Source of the DNA: a virus
Lineage: Duplodnaviria; Caudoviricetes
Direction: 5' to 3' (one strand)
DNA length: 64,000 bases
Virus record (IMG/VR): IMGVR_UViG_3300037781_000042
Span: 1-64,000 of that record
Part shown: positions 1 to 28,337 of the stretch, one piece after another
Position numbering within the stretch: position 1 is the stretch's first letter
Layout of the letters: the number at the start of each line of letters is the position of its first letter
Position numbers and translations under genes: made by a program
Notes under the pieces: generated by a model
Database searches by the model: none
Seen by the model: only the letters and a program-made list of their open reading frames with translations
What the model was told of the DNA's origin: nothing

Positions 1-2508
1 GTTTTAGATAGATCTCCTTATAATGATGGTAAGGCTACTCAAGAAATGTGGGAAGCAGTTGATAAACATACAACCAAAGAATTTTTAAAGCTTTTAAATA
101 AATATGAATTTTTAATTAGAGAAGATATTAAAGATGTATTTTCTGAATTTTTTCCTCTTATTGCTTCTGCAAATAAAAAACAATTTATAGAATTTTATAA
201 TGAAGTTAAAGAAAATTGGTTACCTATTAAAGAAACCTATGAGAAATTTGAAGAAAAATCAAATGAATATGTAGAGCTTTTAAAACAAAAAGGAAAAGAA
301 ATAGAAATTCTTTCTGAAGAGTTGGGATGTAATCCTGTTTCTCCAAAAGAAGTTGAAGACGAAGAATTAGAAGACTTTGAAGATGAAGGAGATTTTAGAG
401 GAATTCCTGATCCAGAAAAACCTAATATTACAGATCCTGATTATTGGAGAAGATTTGCAAGTATGGCTACAATTGTCGGTCTTGCTCCGATTCCACAATT
501 TACAGTTAAGAATCAATTTGGAGTAAATTTAAGAGATCCATCGGGTCCAGAAATAAAGTTACCTAAAGGAGGACCTGTATTTGATGATGATGCAATTCCA
601 AGGTTTATGTTTTATCCTATAGGATTTATTATTCCTACTCCAATATCAGCAGATTTTATTTATAGAATTCCTTTACCTACTATATGGACATTTTTAAATG
701 TTACAACCATAAAAAGTCCATTAAATCAATTGACAGAAAAACTTTTGGAATATCAATCGCAATTAGGAGTTTTTCAAACTTATGCGACTACATATACAAA
801 GGATATGGATTTAGAAAGGATATGGCAAAATGTTCCTTTAGGTTTAATGCAACATTTAATAGGGTTGATGGGACTTGGAAACGCAGGGCCTATTCAAATA
901 ATTAAAAATGAAGTCGCAAAAATTTCTTCTAGTTTTATCGATGGATTAAATAATGAAATAAGAGATATTATGAATACTGCAGTTACTGTAGATTCTACTG
1001 ATACGACAAATAGTATTCAACAAGAACACCAAAGATTTACTCGAGAGATGGATTCTCAAATGGGCCAAATAAGAAGTCAAGCACAGGGTTTTTTAGATAG
1101 AAATTTAAGAGGTTTAGAGAATACTATAAATACAGAATTTAAAGATTTTGATTTAACTTCTTATGCAAGGACTGCAGAAAATGTTTTACAGCAAGCGGGA
1201 AATTTTGTTAATCTTGGAGTAGAATTAGTTTCTTCTGTCGGCGGTTGTGTAGGAATAGATTATCCTTTTAATTTCAGTATTGATCCTTCTGGATTATTAG
1301 GAAAATTAAAGAATTATAGTTCTCAATTTTCTTTAGGAGTAAATGGATTAAGTTTTCCTCAGTTTACAATTCCTTTTCTTAGAATGTCAGAATTTTTAAC
1401 TTATTCTTTAAGTAATATTTCGATTGATTTATTTAAAGAATTAAAATCTGGAATTGATGCTACTTTAATATTTCCTAAAATAGGAGAATTATTACAATAT
1501 CTAGAAGATTTTGTAATGTCTTATTTTTATAAAATGATGAGATGGAAATTATGGGATATGAATTTTCCTATTTTAGATTTCTTTAATTTTAAAATTCCTC
1601 CTACTTTAATAGATTCTTTAAGTATGACTTTGTTTGACTTTAATGATCTTATTATGGTTACGTTTCTGGGCATCTCTGGGATCATTCCATATCCATTTGT
1701 AATGTTAATCAACCCTTCTAGAAAAAGCATACCAGGGATAATAGATGAGCAAACTATAGAATTTCTTATAACATTAGATTTTACAGATCCTATAAAAGTA
1801 ATTAAAAAGAATTTTGGAACATATACTTTGCCTTTGAGATTTCATATTGAAGATGTTATAAATTCAGGTTTAGGATTATACTTTGAACCTGGCGGTGGAA
1901 GTATTACTAACTTATGCGATCTTATAAATAAACTAGGTTTTAGTTGGCAAGAAATATTGGGAGATTTAAAATCTTTACTTAATTGGGATATCGTACCTAA
2001 AGATTTATGGAATTCTTTTGAACTTCCAAATCCTAATATGATTTGTAAAATGATAGCAGCAAAAAGTGCGAAAGAAGCTTTTAATATTGCATTATCTGAA
2101 GTAAAATTAGATTCTACTTTAACTCCTCCTACAATACCTAAAGCAGCTGATTTAGTAAAATATGGAGTAACTGATTATGATGGAGCAAAAGATTTTGTCA
2201 TGGATGAATTTAAATCTACGTTCGGAGCAGCTAAATTTCCTACAGTAGACGAATTATTGAATATGAATAGAAGTCATCAACAAACTTTATTATTGAATGA
2301 AATAGGAATAGCTAAAAAGGTAAAATTAGATTTGCTTCCTCAAATAACATTGAATTCTCCATATTTACAAGATGATCTTCCTTCTTGGGAAAGATTACAG
2401 TGGTGGAATATTCCTTTTATTTTGTTCTTGATAGAATTTAATATAGCTGCTAAATTTGGAGCAGTTTTACCTATTCCAGAAGTATCCCCTGTAGCTAGAA
2501 TGCGTTAG
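1..2508 (+). CDS. Large hypothetical protein, 5'-truncated by the window edge
   Basis: The 820-aa ORF from 46 has an open frame back to base 1 (gtt tta gat aga ... gaa atg). No family motif recognised. Confidence 0.75.
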   Translation, partial: VLDRSPYNDGKATQEMWEAVDKHTTKEFLKLLNKYEFLIREDIKDVFSEFFPLIASANKKQFIEFYNEVKENWLPIKETYEKFEEKSNEYVELLKQKGKEIEILSEELGCNPVSPKEVEDEELEDFEDEGDFRGIPDPEKPNITDPDYWRRFASMATIVGLAPIPQFTVKNQFGVNLRDPSGPEIKLPKGGPVFDDDAIPRFMFYPIGFIIPTPISADFIYRIPLPTIWTFLNVTTIKSPLNQLTEKLLEYQSQLGVFQTYATTYTKDMDLERIWQNVPLGLMQHLIGLMGLGNAGPIQIIKNEVAKISSSFIDGLNNEIRDIMNTAVTVDSTDTTNSIQQEHQRFTREMDSQMGQIRSQAQGFLDRNLRGLENTINTEFKDFDLTSYARTAENVLQQAGNFVNLGVELVSSVGGCVGIDYPFNFSIDPSGLLGKLKNYSSQFSLGVNGLSFPQFTIPFLRMSEFLTYSLSNISIDLFKELKSGIDATLIFPKIGELLQYLEDFVMSYFYKMMRWKLWDMNFPILDFFNFKIPPTLIDSLSMTLFDFNDLIMVTFLGISGIIPYPFVMLINPSRKSIPGIIDEQTIEFLITLDFTDPIKVIKKNFGTYTLPLRFHIEDVINSGLGLYFEPGGGSITNLCDLINKLGFSWQEILGDLKSLLNWDIVPKDLWNSFELPNPNMICKMIAAKSAKEAFNIALSEVKLDSTLTPPTIPKAADLVKYGVTDYDGAKDFVMDEFKSTFGAAKFPTVDELLNMNRSHQQTLLLNEIGIAKKVKLDLLPQITLNSPYLQDDLPSWERLQWWNIPFILFLIEFNIAAKFGAVLPIPEVSPVARMR

Positions 2509-2517
2509 AAATAGATG

Positions 2518-2526
2518 AATATATAG
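2518..2526 (+). promoter_or_regulatory. Putative late promoter AATATATAG
   Basis: Exact motif 40 nt before the S1-like gene. The same 9-mer recurs before the structural genes. Confidence 0.65.
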
Positions 2527-2565
2527 ATTTTAAAAATATTATAAATTTTACATAAAGGTAACCTA

Positions 2566-3879
2566 ATGTCTTATGAAGAATTAGACCAAGTAGCAGATTT
2601 AGATTGGACAAAGATGGATTTAACTGCACCATCCGAATTTGAAAAAATGTTAACAGAACATTTAACAAATATAGAAGTATACGATCCTGAAGTGGGATCT
2701 ATATTTGATGTCGATTCACTAGAAGTAGTAAATAATAAATTGTGTGCAATATTATCAAATGATGTTGTAGTTGAAATGAACTTAGCAACAGAGTATCGAT
2801 GTCTGTTGGATAGTATTTTTCAAGAAGGAACTACTTTTAAAAATAGAAAAGAGTTTTTAAAATATGTTTCTAAAAATAAAGAAACAATTAATGAAGCTGT
2901 TAAAAAGCAAAAATTAAAAATTCAAATAACAAAAACTAGAAATGGTATTTTAGAAGGATCTATAAGTGCATGGAACTTTAAGAAGCTTTCTAAAGAATTT
3001 TTAGAACAAATAAGATTAAATAAAATAATTGAATCTTCTAAAAAGAAATTCACTAAGAGCAGAAATCCTATTAAAACTCAAAGTAAAACAGGATATTCTT
3101 ATGATGAAGTAGAAGAAGCAAAACAAAATCAGAGATATTACAAGTGTAAACTTGTTGAAATGAACAAAGGTGGTTTTTTAGGGTATATTTCAGGAGTTCA
3201 AGTGTTTGTTCCTGGATCTTTAGCACATCACCAAAGAATAGAAGATTATGAAAGCTTTGTAGGAAAAACTATCGATGTTATGATAGATTCTTATGTATCA
3301 AATAGAAATATTTTTATTGCTTCTAATAAGAGATATATTGACGCGAAGATACCTACAATAGTAAATGAAATAGATAATAATACAAAACAAACTGGAACTA
3401 TTACAGGAATTACGGATTTCGGTATATTTATTAATTTCAAAGAAATTTTAAATGGATTATTACACATATCCGAAATGACTCAAAATACTATTCATAAATT
3501 AAAGAATAGAGAATTTGAAATTGGAGAAGAAGTAGAATTTTATGTAAAATCTTTCTATCATGATAAAATAGTTTTATCTGAAATGACTTTAGAAGAAGCA
3601 GAATCTGAATGGGAAGAAATAGAAAATGATATAAAAGGAACTGTAGTTTTAGGAAAAGTATTGAAGAAAGTTTCTACAGGATATTTGTTTAAATTAGATA
3701 ATGGTTTAAGAGGACTATTGTATGATATAGAAGCAGATAAATATCCAATGAATATAGTGGAAGGAAATGAATATGAAGTAGAAGTTTGGAAGATGGATTT
3801 CAATTCTTCTAAGATTTTCTTAAAATATCCAGAAATTCAAAATTTACAAGAATTAAGAGATGCATTTATCCCAAAATAA
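2566..3879 (+). CDS. rpsA: Ribosomal protein S1-like protein (three S1/OB domains in the C-terminal half)
   Basis: S1-repeat signatures: KLVEMNKGGFLGYISGVQVFVPGS, GTITGITDFGIFINF..ILNGLLHISEM and GTVVLGKVLKKVSTGYLFKL..GLRGLL. Confidence 0.8.
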   Translation: MSYEELDQVADLDWTKMDLTAPSEFEKMLTEHLTNIEVYDPEVGSIFDVDSLEVVNNKLCAILSNDVVVEMNLATEYRCLLDSIFQEGTTFKNRKEFLKYVSKNKETINEAVKKQKLKIQITKTRNGILEGSISAWNFKKLSKEFLEQIRLNKIIESSKKKFTKSRNPIKTQSKTGYSYDEVEEAKQNQRYYKCKLVEMNKGGFLGYISGVQVFVPGSLAHHQRIEDYESFVGKTIDVMIDSYVSNRNIFIASNKRYIDAKIPTIVNEIDNNTKQTGTITGITDFGIFINFKEILNGLLHISEMTQNTIHKLKNREFEIGEEVEFYVKSFYHDKIVLSEMTLEEAESEWEEIENDIKGTVVLGKVLKKVSTGYLFKLDNGLRGLLYDIEADKYPMNIVEGNEYEVEVWKMDFNSSKIFLKYPEIQNLQELRDAFIPK

Positions 3880-5218
3880 AAAGTTTGAAATATTTCAAAA
3901 AACTAAAGTAGGATTTGAGATTGAATTTTTCTCAGATTTGAAAGATAGAAATATTGCGTCTTTCCTAAAAGATTCCTTAAATAGAAAGGTAGTTTTAGGA
4001 AAGACCAAAACTTCTATTGGGAAAGACAAGATAGGTTATCACACTAAAATTAAAATTGATGAAGAAAAATTTAAATTAGAAAAGGATTTTTCTGGTGGAC
4101 CTATGATGTACGAATTGGTAACATCTCCTTTACCGTATTTTGAAGCAAAAAAGGTTTTAATTTCAGCATTAGATACTATTAAAGAAATAGGTTGGGTAAA
4201 TGATAATTCAGCAATTCAAATAAACATTTCTTTTGATGATCAAGAATGTCAAATAATGTACATTAACATATTAAAGTTTTGTTTGAATTTTTATATGTTA
4301 GAAAAGGAAATATTTAAAGATTTTCCAGTAAGAAAAAATAACATTTATTCTGAATCTATTACTAAAATAATGCCTGACATAAGTTCTTTAACTATGGATC
4401 CTAAAGATCTTAAAGTATCAACTACTAAAGTTAAACTTCCTACAAACTCTAAATATTTTGGAGTTAACTTTCAACACATGATGAAAGATAATTATTTAGA
4501 ATTTAGATATTTAGGCGGAAGAAACTATTTAAAGAAATCTTCTAAAATAGTAGATTATTTAGAAAAGTTTGTTTTATTTTCTTATGATCAGGCCGTAAAT
4601 AGAGAAGTAACAGATAGAGACGAAGAAATGTTTAATCGTGTAATTACTGCTCATTTTGAAAGGATGAAATTTTTTAATGATTTAGAATCTTTTCAAAAAA
4701 GATTTAAAAATATTCATTTATTTGTAGATTTAGAAACAGATCCTTCTTATATTCAACTAAGATTTGAATCTATGAAGCCTTTTTTATATGAACTTATAAT
4801 TAATAATAATCTTAAAGAAGGATATATTAATTTAGATACCGATGTTTCTAAATATCAAATCAAAGATGCTACTATTAAAAAAGGATTAAACCTTCATAAT
4901 ATAGAATTTGTAAACTGTGATTTAGAAGGAGTTTACGAAAATTGTGACTTTTATAATTGTACTATAGAAAATGCATTGATGTTTGATTGTGGATTACATG
5001 GATATTCTGAAGTAAAATATTCTAAATTAATCGATACTTCAAGTAACACAGTAAGTACTTTTGATAATTGTTTCATTAGAAACGATAAACAAAGAATAGG
5101 AGGAATATTTAATAAATGTATTATTGTAGGATCAGAAGATCTTTTACTTTATGATTCTGTATTAGATAATGAAACTTTATTCGTAGATAGAGAATACGGT
5201 TCTAAAAAGAAAAAATAA
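3860..5218 (+). CDS. Putative amidoligase (COOH-NH2 ligase, Amidoligase_2-like) with a C-terminal beta-helix-like repeat region
   Basis: Motifs GFEIEF, YELVTSPL, SAIQINIS, KYFGVNF and LEFRYLGG. The C-terminus has short periodic repeats (FVNCDL, FYNCTI, FDNCFI, FNKCII). Confidence 0.6.
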   Translation: MHLSQNKKFEIFQKTKVGFEIEFFSDLKDRNIASFLKDSLNRKVVLGKTKTSIGKDKIGYHTKIKIDEEKFKLEKDFSGGPMMYELVTSPLPYFEAKKVLISALDTIKEIGWVNDNSAIQINISFDDQECQIMYINILKFCLNFYMLEKEIFKDFPVRKNNIYSESITKIMPDISSLTMDPKDLKVSTTKVKLPTNSKYFGVNFQHMMKDNYLEFRYLGGRNYLKKSSKIVDYLEKFVLFSYDQAVNREVTDRDEEMFNRVITAHFERMKFFNDLESFQKRFKNIHLFVDLETDPSYIQLRFESMKPFLYELIINNNLKEGYINLDTDVSKYQIKDATIKKGLNLHNIEFVNCDLEGVYENCDFYNCTIENALMFDCGLHGYSEVKYSKLIDTSSNTVSTFDNCFIRNDKQRIGGIFNKCIIVGSEDLLLYDSVLDNETLFVDREYGSKKKK

Positions 5219-7946: not shown

Positions 7947-7972
7947 ATTTAAAAAATTTTTCTTATATTACA
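7941..7972 (+). promoter_or_regulatory. Putative early promoter (TTTTTTATTTAAAAAATTTTTCTTATATTACA)
   Basis: A 32-nt identical copy lies at 22850-22881 and a near copy at about 28275-28307. Each heads a cluster of non-structural genes. Confidence 0.55.
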
Positions 7973-8006
7973 TCATGTTCAATTAACACTTATAGGAAAA
8001 AGTAAA

Positions 8007-22849: not shown

Positions 22850-22881
22850 TTTTTTATTTAAAAAATTTTTCTTATATTACA
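22850..22881 (+). promoter_or_regulatory. Putative early promoter
   Basis: Identical to 7941-7972. Heads the 22.9-28.3 kb cluster of small ORFs. Confidence 0.55.
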
Positions 22882-22912
22882 ACATATTTAATTAACATTT
22901 TACGGAGAAGTT

Positions 22913-28275: not shown

Positions 28276-28307
28276 TTTTTTATTTTAAAAATTTTTATTA
28301 TATTACA
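28275..28307 (+). promoter_or_regulatory. Putative early promoter (variant)
   Basis: ttttttattttaaaaatttttattatattaca followed by TTCAATTAAC, like the 7941 copy. Confidence 0.5.
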
Positions 28308-28337
28308 AAGTATTCAATTAACTAAAGGATAATAAAA

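What the first reader, a model, noticed from the sequence alone, without database searches (positions are those of the whole stretch)
2518..3879. Late-expressed phage ribosomal protein S1, with SD-less leaders on the late structural genes
Seen: an S1-like protein (three S1 domains plus a non-S1 ~190-aa N-terminus) sits behind the late motif. The main structural genes (5303, 16409, 39589, 53285, 58895, 59591, 60919) have A/U-rich leaders with no GGAG. Several early/middle genes have strong SD sites (AAAGGAG at about 24503, 25866 and 26910; AAGGAG before 35604 and 51608). Established: bS1 recruits A/U-rich, SD-poor mRNAs, and S1 homologues have been reported in huge phages. Inference: the phage S1 redirects ribosomes from SD-dependent to A/U-rich late mRNAs, acting as a translational switch.
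Basis: partly seen in the sequence, partly recalled or inferred. Interest (0 to 1): 0.68.

Follow-up and report, generated by a model that had tools for sequence, protein, structure and literature searches.

The report
Late phage S1 gene, SD-less late leaders
An uncultured 212-kb jumbo phage carries its own four-domain copy of ribosomal protein S1 behind a late-type promoter, and its late genes lack ribosome-binding (Shine-Dalgarno) sites while its early genes have them; phage S1 genes were already known, and the proposed S1-driven translational switch remains untested.

Summary
ORF 2566-3879 (437 aa) is a real bS1 homologue (E 2e-28 to E. coli S1). It sits 39 nt behind AATATATAG, a motif that precedes capsid, protease, adaptor, terminase-operon and fibre genes.

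The N-terminus is not "non-S1". It models as a helix plus a divergent S1-type OB fold with a helical insert, so there are four OB domains.

In my 265 gene calls, SD cores occur in 13% of late-promoter genes (chance is 8%), 57% of early-promoter first genes and 49% of other non-late genes. T4 shows the opposite (78% of late genes).

New points:
- The S1 leader keeps an RAGG element in all six related loci, against 1 of 30 other late-promoter genes.
- S1 is paired with an amidoligase-like gene in nine of nine close loci.

Against a dedicated switch:
- Three more distant S1-bearing phage contigs have no SD anywhere.
- Both leader classes are about 80% A+U.
- The host is unknown and 30S binding is unshown.

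Phage S1 and its link to SD-poor genomes were published in 2020 (PMC7162821); late-expressed phage bS21 in 2022.

Another note of this scan, on an overlapping window of the same genome, flagged the same SD split.

My reading: a late-made S1 that supports SD-independent initiation. The class shift is probably specific to this lineage.

The parts
46..2508 (+). 3' part of a large conserved gene upstream of S1. It is cut by the start of the record. Relatives are 1224-1263 aa and carry a late-type motif upstream.
   Evidence: ORF list. Synteny in L003, L005, L006 and L107. No Pfam or PHROG family.
2518..2526 (+). Late-type promoter motif AATATATAG, 39 nt before the S1 start.
   Evidence: 16/18 exact copies lie upstream of called starts. 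The motif precedes MCP, prohead proteases, head-tail adaptor, the terminase operon and tail fibres. It is kept upstream of S1 in L005, L006 and L108. A related (G/A)ATATATA motif precedes S1 in G006-G008.
2555..2559 (+). SD-like AAGGT in the S1 leader, 11 nt before the ATG.
   Evidence: RAGG at -9 to -12 in 6/6 related S1 loci, against 1/30 other late-promoter genes of this genome.
2566..3879 (+). Phage bS1 homologue, 437 aa (P0001).
2629..2664 (+). Residues 22-33: a helix placed like the N-terminal uS2-docking helix of cellular bS1.
   Evidence: AF2 helix. hhalign pairs it with the cellular N-terminal helix, but not significantly (E 0.088).
2683..2970 (+). Residues 40-135: a divergent S1-type OB fold (D1-like) with a helical insert at residues 73-115.
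   Evidence: Z 6.8 to M. smegmatis bS1 residues 18-120.
3139..3324 (+). Residues 192-253: S1 domain matching bS1 domain 2.
   Evidence: Aligns with E. coli S1 residues 115-180. OB strands in the model.
3388..3579 (+). Residues 275-338: canonical S1 RNA-binding domain (FGIF...GLLHISE).
   Evidence: Pfam S1 E 2e-12. Aligns with E. coli domains 3-5.
3643..3825 (+). Residues 360-420: third canonical S1 domain.
3860..5218 (+). Amidoligase_2-like gene (452 aa). It overlaps the end of S1 by 20 nt and is co-inherited with S1.
   Evidence: Pfam PF12224 at 27.2 bits (cut-off 22), matched by 6 of 9 homologues. Next to or near S1 in 9/9 close loci and absent from the three S1-less relatives.

Best explanation
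The ORF encodes a phage copy of ribosomal protein bS1 reduced to four OB domains: a D1-like docking domain with a helical insert, then three canonical S1 domains. In E. coli, domains 1-3 already carry 30S binding, mRNA docking and RNA melting (PMC3858243).

The gene is transcribed from the phage's late-type promoter, together with a translationally coupled amidoligase-like gene.

The most likely mechanism is as follows. The protein occupies, or competes for, the bS1 site on host 30S subunits. There it raises SD-independent initiation on the phage's SD-less late messages at the time when virion proteins are needed in bulk.

In this lineage early and middle genes use SD sites and late-promoter genes do not. 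Accumulation of S1 would therefore shift capacity toward late messages. S1's own SD-like element would let it be made before that shift.

Shown: homology, domain layout, promoter linkage, the SD split and the gene pairing.

Inferred: 30S binding, any selectivity, timing, and the role of the amidoligase.

More distant S1-bearing phage contigs have no SD genes at all. I therefore read the class shift as a lineage-specific consequence of a general S1 function, not the reason the gene exists.
For: bS1 homology and fold. D1-like N-terminus.

A conserved family of 20 full-length relatives, with 54% mean column identity, including the N-terminal domain.

Late-motif linkage, conserved across relatives. 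The motif precedes virion and packaging genes.

SD cores by class:
- late-first genes 13%
- late-internal genes 27%
- non-late genes 49%
- early-promoter first cistrons with equally short leaders 57% (p 0.0036 against late-first)

The same split appears in related contigs: 1/17 late-motif genes against 18/53 others, my count.

T4 run through the same pipeline has SD on 14/18 late-promoter genes.

The S1 leader keeps RAGG in 6/6 loci, against 1/30 other late-first genes.

Published background. Huge phages with rpS1 rarely have SD sites (PMC7162821). Phage bS21 is expressed late and was proposed to favour late transcripts (PMC9723584). bS1 is thought to matter most where SD sites are absent (PMC7797042).
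Against: - There is no experimental or transcript evidence.
- Sequence support for the docking helix and D1 is weak (hhalign E 0.088; fold Z 6.8).
- S1-bearing contigs G006-G008 have 0-1% SD genes. S1-less relatives PTm1, MA9V-1 and PAU translate entirely SD-less genomes. S1 is therefore neither necessary for SD-less late genes in this phage group nor tied to an SD split.
- Leader A+U content barely differs between the classes, so classical S1 affinity would not tell them apart.
- The host is unknown, so it is unclear whether its ribosomes read SD sites or need extra S1.
- S1 is made from the same promoter class as the messages it is supposed to help.
Confidence: 0.4

Rival explanations
1. General supplement or replacement of host S1, with no class selectivity. 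The phage adds S1 late, when translation demand peaks or when host S1 is limiting, inactivated or targeted by a defence. The SD split has an unrelated cause.
For: S1 occurs in related phages whose genes are all SD-less and in Lak and other huge phages (PMC7162821). Both leader classes are about 80% A+U. bS1 binds weakly and is easily under-represented on ribosomes (PMC7797042).
Against: It does not explain why S1's own leader alone keeps an SD-like element in this clade. It also does not explain why late leaders sit at chance level for SD in a phage whose other genes select for SD.
Confidence: 0.3
2. The SD split is independent of S1. It reflects class-specific regulation or history. For example, SD sites on early genes could serve shut-off or coupling, while late leaders keep the SD-less state of the Bacteroidota-phage ancestors because the host initiates well on A-rich leaders.
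For: The nearest cultured relatives are SD-less throughout and show A enrichment at -11 to -14 and at -3. MCP relatives infect Prevotella, Chryseobacterium and Tenacibaculum.
Against: Leaders evolve fast. In this genome SD cores are enriched 4- to 5-fold on non-late genes, so the host apparently rewards SD sites, yet the most highly expressed class has none. The conserved RAGG on the S1 leader fits a link.
Confidence: 0.2
3. An off-ribosome role. The protein acts as an RNA chaperone, mRNA protector or nuclease cofactor, as host S1 activates T4 RegB to cut GGAG in early SD sites. Alternatively it is the substrate or partner of the adjacent amidoligase-like enzyme.
For: The T4 precedent for S1-dependent cleavage of early SD sites (PMC9409239). 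GGAG-type SD sites are concentrated on non-late genes. S1 and the amidoligase-like gene are tightly linked.
Against: No RegB family member was found in the genome, and the same search finds RegB in T4 at E 1e-69. The protein keeps the D1-D2 region, which in bS1 serves ribosome docking. Late timing does not fit an early shut-off factor.
Confidence: 0.1

Closest known systems
Bacterial ribosomal protein bS1 (E. coli RpsA, six S1 domains; four-domain forms in some lineages)
   Same: Tandem S1/OB domains. The best sequence and fold matches are bS1 itself. The order is helix, D1, D2, then RNA-binding domains. The F..F..H RNA-binding pattern is present in the third domain.
   Different: It has only four domains and is 437 aa long. 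D1 is highly divergent and carries a 40-residue helical insert. A long helix and a disordered linker lie between D1 and D2. It is encoded by a phage behind a late-type promoter. No close cellular relative was found.
rpS1 genes of huge phages (Al-Shayeb et al. 2020, PMC7162821), including Lak phages of Prevotella
   Same: A phage-borne multi-S1-domain protein in a Lak/PAU-like jumbo phage lineage. It is associated with genes that lack SD sites.
   Different: About 30% identity, over domains 2-4 only. This phage does have SD sites, on its non-late genes, so the SD-poor state is class-specific rather than genome-wide. The conserved SD-like element on the S1 leader and the pairing with an amidoligase-like gene were not described in the parts of that paper I searched.
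Phage-encoded bS21 expressed in late-stage replication (Chen et al. 2022, PMC9723584)
   Same: A phage copy of an initiation-related small-subunit protein, co-located and co-expressed with structural genes. It was proposed to favour late phage transcripts, in phages of freshwater Bacteroidetes.
   Different: A different protein and a different ribosomal site. No bS21 gene was found here. There is no transcript evidence for this phage.
T4 RegB with host S1: inactivation of early mRNAs at GGAG in their SD sites (PMC9409239)
   Same: A T4-like phage in which SD content differs by temporal class and S1 is involved in class-specific control.
   Different: No RegB homologue (positive control). Here S1 is phage-encoded and linked to the late promoter. 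T4 late genes do carry SD sites.

Membership tests
Ribosomal protein bS1 | Several tandem S1-type OB domains | tested here: met
   Three canonical S1 domains by sequence, plus a fourth, divergent OB domain in the AF2 models.
Ribosomal protein bS1 | Closer to bS1 than to other S1-domain proteins (PNPase, RNase R, NusA, Tex) | tested here: met
   bS1 chains score E 2e-28 to 1e-18. PNPase and RNase R score E 1e-3 or weaker. Foldseek ranks 1-4 are ribosome-bound bS1.
Ribosomal protein bS1 | N-terminal helix plus D1 that dock on uS2 | tested here: inconclusive
   The fold of residues 26-149 best matches M. smegmatis bS1 residues 18-120 (Z 6.8, rmsd 4.3, 101 aligned). Foldseek E values are only 4e-3 or weaker. 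hhalign to cellular N-termini gives E 0.088.
Ribosomal protein bS1 | Physical association with the 30S subunit | not testable with these tools
   This needs sedimentation, pull-down or cryo-EM with the unknown host's ribosomes.
Ribosomal protein bS1 | RNA-binding residues of the S1 motif in the central domains | tested here: met
   Residues 281-303 (ITDFGIFINF...NGLLHISEM) align with the matching E. coli S1 segments in domains 3 to 5. They are invariant across the 20-member family.
Late-expressed phage ribosomal proteins (bS21 type, PMC9723584) | Gene placed with, and controlled like, virion structural genes | tested here: met
   The late-type motif lies 39 nt upstream. The same motif precedes MCP, proteases, adaptor, the terminase operon and fibres. 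It is conserved in relatives.
Late-expressed phage ribosomal proteins (bS21 type, PMC9723584) | Transcripts detected together with structural genes | not testable with these tools
T4 RegB/S1 early-mRNA inactivation | A RegB endoribonuclease gene | tested here: not met
   PF10715 gives no match in the 211.6-kb record. The same search finds T4 regB at E 1e-69. The record is estimated to be 82% complete.
Amidoligase_2 (PF12224), for the coupled downstream gene | Match to the family model above its curated cut-off | tested here: met
   27.2 bits against a cut-off of 22, over residues 14-174. 6 of 9 homologues match, best E 3.7e-7. No solved relative was found by sequence.

The most novel reading that the evidence does not exclude
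The phage runs a self-contained initiation system. Late messages are written without SD sites and are translated efficiently only once the phage's own S1 has re-equipped host 30S subunits. The co-inherited amidoligase-like enzyme may act on S1 or on the ribosome. The S1 message alone keeps an SD-like element, so host ribosomes can start the loop. This would make late translation gated by a phage ribosomal protein in a host that otherwise reads SD sites.
Probability: 0.15. Interest if true: 0.8.

Novelty: new variant of a known kind. Interest (0 to 1): 0.55.

Why it matters
Phage-encoded ribosomal proteins are known from sequence, but what they do is largely untested. This genome is a clean natural test case. 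Two promoter classes have opposite SD usage within one phage, and a phage S1 sits in the SD-less class. The S1 leader is an exception to its class, and the gene has a conserved enzyme partner.

If S1 does bias initiation toward SD-less messages, it would show a virus changing ribosome specificity in time. It would also supply parts for orthogonal translation. If it does not, the SD split still needs an explanation.

Tried and rejected
1. Complex prediction of the N-terminal 165 residues with F. johnsoniae uS2 (RS2_FLAJ1) gave no verdict (score 0.10, mark 0.32). It is not used either way.

3. Host assignment failed.
- No close cellular S1 was found. The top genome-contig hits are short contigs in MAGs, or RNase R.
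- Cluster members carry no taxon names.
- The record has no tRNA genes.

4. An xFDW motif occurs before the N-terminal helix of Bacteroidota bS1. It is also found in many short, phage-like S1 proteins. Only P0001-P0004 of this family keep a degenerate DLDW, so the lead to a Bacteroidota host is weak.

5. Virion packaging of S1: the phage's T4-like head tag reads MNKEFKTYKEFLNES. The S1 N-terminus (MSYEELDQ...) lacks it and varies among relatives, so this was rejected.

6. Short leader as the cause of SD loss: rejected. Early-promoter first cistrons have leaders of similar length, and 57% carry SD cores.

7. A Bacteroidia-style A pattern at -11 to -14 is clear in PTm1, MA9V-1 and PAU. It cannot be resolved in the 31 late leaders here, because their A baseline is about 55%.

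8. PHROGs has no family for S1 or for the amidoligase-like protein.

9. No bS21 gene was found.

10. S1 and amidoligase co-occurrence beyond the close clade is partial. Both genes are in LR756500, LR756502, LR756504 and LR745206, and they are close together only in LR756500. Lak phages have S1 but no detectable amidoligase. LR756501 and LR756503 have the amidoligase but no S1 hit.

Full report
**What is there**

The window is the first 64 kb of a 211,581-bp virus record with 27% G+C. CheckV rates it 82% complete. ORF 2566-3879 (+, 437 aa, P0001) starts 39 nt after AATATATAG at 2518.

- phmmer against PDB gives E. coli bS1 at E 2e-28. Three stretches align query residues 199-392 with domains 2 to 5.
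- Pfam S1 matches residues 276-330 at E 2e-12. PHROGs has no family for it.
- An AF2 model built on 20 full-length relatives (pLDDT 81.5) shows a helix at 22-33 and a six-stranded OB-like domain at 46-132. That domain is interrupted by helices at 73-115.
- A long helix (133-162) and a disordered linker follow, and then three OB domains at 192-253, 275-338 and 360-420.
- Foldseek ranks ribosome-bound bS1 first, at E 1.6e-20.

**The N-terminus**

- Folded alone, every Foldseek row is an S1-fold protein, though the E values are only 4e-3 or weaker.
- An exhaustive structural scan puts M. smegmatis bS1 residues 18-120 first. That region is the ribosome-bound N-terminal domain (Z 6.8, 101 residues aligned, model residues 26-149).
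- hhalign pairs residues 21-55 with the helix and first strands of cellular bS1, but without significance (E 0.088).

I read the protein as helix-D1-D2-D3-D4. The docking part is plausible but not proven. In E. coli, domains 1-3 retain 30S binding, mRNA docking and melting (PMC3858243), so a four-domain protein could be functional.

**The phage and its relatives**

The capsid protein is closest to the following:
- an uncultured huge phage (LR756500) and the Lak phages of Prevotella, at 36-37% identity
- phage PAU, at 32%
- jumbo phages of Chryseobacterium and Tenacibaculum, at 29-32%

The S1 protein has 19 full-length metagenomic relatives at 37-69% identity by BLASTP. It has no close cellular relative.

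In every related contig I fetched, the gene order is: large protein, S1, then a roughly 450-aa protein.

**The late motif**

- 16 of 18 exact AATATATAG copies lie within 100 nt upstream of a called start. So do 12 of the 13 AATATATAA copies and all of the AATATATAC and AATATATAT copies.
- In the window the motif precedes the major capsid protein, two head-maturation protease genes, a head-tail adaptor, two tail-fibre genes and the operon that holds the large terminase.
- It is kept upstream of S1 in L005, L006 and L108. In L003 and L107 it sits one small gene further up.
- In three more distant S1-bearing IMG/VR contigs, S1 again follows a (G/A)ATATATA motif.

Late timing is inferred from this association, not measured.

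**The SD split**

I called 265 genes with a start rule that ignores ribosome sites. An SD 4-mer core (GGAG, GAGG or AGGA at -18..-4) occurs as follows:

| Gene class | With SD core | Share |
|---|---|---|
| Late-promoter genes | 4/31 | 13% |
| Genes downstream of them in the same run | 26/95 | 27% |
| Remaining (non-late) genes | 68/139 | 49% |
| Random positions | | 8% |

- Late-first against all other genes gives p 0.003, and late-internal against non-late gives p 0.001.
- G peaks at -11 to -9 in the SD genes, which is the normal spacing.
- Leader length is not the cause. A second, highly conserved promoter module (TTTTTCTTATATTA, 14 gene-proximal copies) gives first cistrons with leaders of similar length. 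Of these, 8/14 carry an SD core, against 4/31 for late-first genes (p 0.0036).
- T4 run through the same pipeline has SD cores on 14/18 late-promoter genes, so the pattern is not a T4-like default.
- Related contigs show the same split: 1/17 late-motif genes against 18/53 others, my count.

**Two additions**

First, S1 is the exception in its class. Its leader has RAGG(T) at -9 to -12 in all six related loci, which represent about four independent lineages. Only 1 of the 30 other late-promoter genes here has it. In the SD-less S1-bearing contigs the S1 leader has none.

Second, the downstream 452-aa gene overlaps S1 by 20 nt.
- It matches Pfam Amidoligase_2 above the cut-off.
- It lies next to or near S1 in nine of nine close loci, and it is absent from PTm1, MA9V-1 and PAU.
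- Further out the link is partial.

**What weakens the switch reading**

- PTm1, MA9V-1 and PAU have no S1. Their SD cores are at 1-5%, at or below background. They show the Bacteroidia-style A enrichment at -11 to -14 and at -3.
- S1-bearing contigs G006-G008 are also at 0-1%.
- In this phage group, therefore, SD-less genes are the rule with or without S1. What is unusual here is the SD on early and middle genes.
- Leader A+U content is 84% for late-first genes and 78% for non-late genes. Classical S1 affinity for A/U-rich RNA would not separate the classes.
- The host is unknown.
- No RegB (control) and no bS21 were found.

**Comparison with what is known**

- Al-Shayeb et al. 2020 reported rpS1 in huge phages. 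They noted that such phages rarely have identifiable SD sites and proposed a role in initiation (PMC7162821).
- Mizuno et al. 2019 showed that viral bS21 and bL12 enter E. coli ribosomes (PMC6375957).
- Chen et al. 2022 showed late expression of phage bS21 and proposed selective translation of late transcripts (PMC9723584).
- In Bacteroidia the anti-SD is sequestered, and bS1 is suspected to matter more (PMC7797042).

The gene is therefore a new family within a known kind. New, as far as I could find, are three things: the promoter-class-specific SD usage, the conserved SD-like element on the S1 leader, and the amidoligase partner. Another first-reader note of this scan, on an overlapping window of the same genome, had flagged the SD split.

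**Verdict**

The best reading (0.4) is a late-made S1 that supports SD-independent initiation of late messages. The class shift would be a lineage-specific consequence of that function.

Noticed in passing
window 3860-5218: An Amidoligase_2-like gene overlaps the S1 stop by 20 nt. It lies next to or near S1 in nine of nine close loci and is absent from three S1-less relatives. Its C-terminal 200 residues are Cys-rich and match no family.
   Followed up: partly
window 7950-8000, 22860-22910, 28290-28335, and about ten more sites in the genome (e.g. 69560-69610, 88905-88960, 119180-119230): A highly conserved module of about 50 nt (TTTTTTATTTAAAAAATTTTTCTTATATTACA..ATTCAATTAACA) lies 30-37 nt before non-late genes. 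It is probably the early promoter plus a shared 5' leader. I saw no clear -35 hexamer.
   Followed up: partly
genome 123433-123789, minus strand (outside the window): ARAGORN finds a phage tmRNA gene with the tag DETQYASLAA. It finds no tRNA genes in the whole record.
   Followed up: no
L096-L106 (Sphingomonas phage PAU, whole genome): PAU has SD cores on only 5% of genes. It shows the Bacteroidia-style A enrichment at -11 to -13 and at -3, like the Tenacibaculum and Chryseobacterium phages. That is odd for a phage listed on an alphaproteobacterial host.
   Followed up: no
P0097-P0119, L116, L117; P0023-P0084 (short S1-like proteins): An xFDW(D)A motif lies before the N-terminal helix in Bacteroidota bS1 (Cyclobacteriaceae and Cytophagales MAGs). 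It is absent from the spirochaete and acidobacterial bS1 examined. It also occurs in many 370-430-aa S1 proteins that look phage-borne, which suggests these descend from Bacteroidota bS1.
   Followed up: partly
window 51608 vs 51776: My gene caller chose ATG 51776. ATG 51608 has TTAAGGAG 8 nt upstream and is the likelier start, so my SD counts are slightly conservative.
   Followed up: yes
window 1-2508: The record begins inside the large gene upstream of S1. That gene is 1224-1263 aa in relatives, so the record is cut there.
   Followed up: partly
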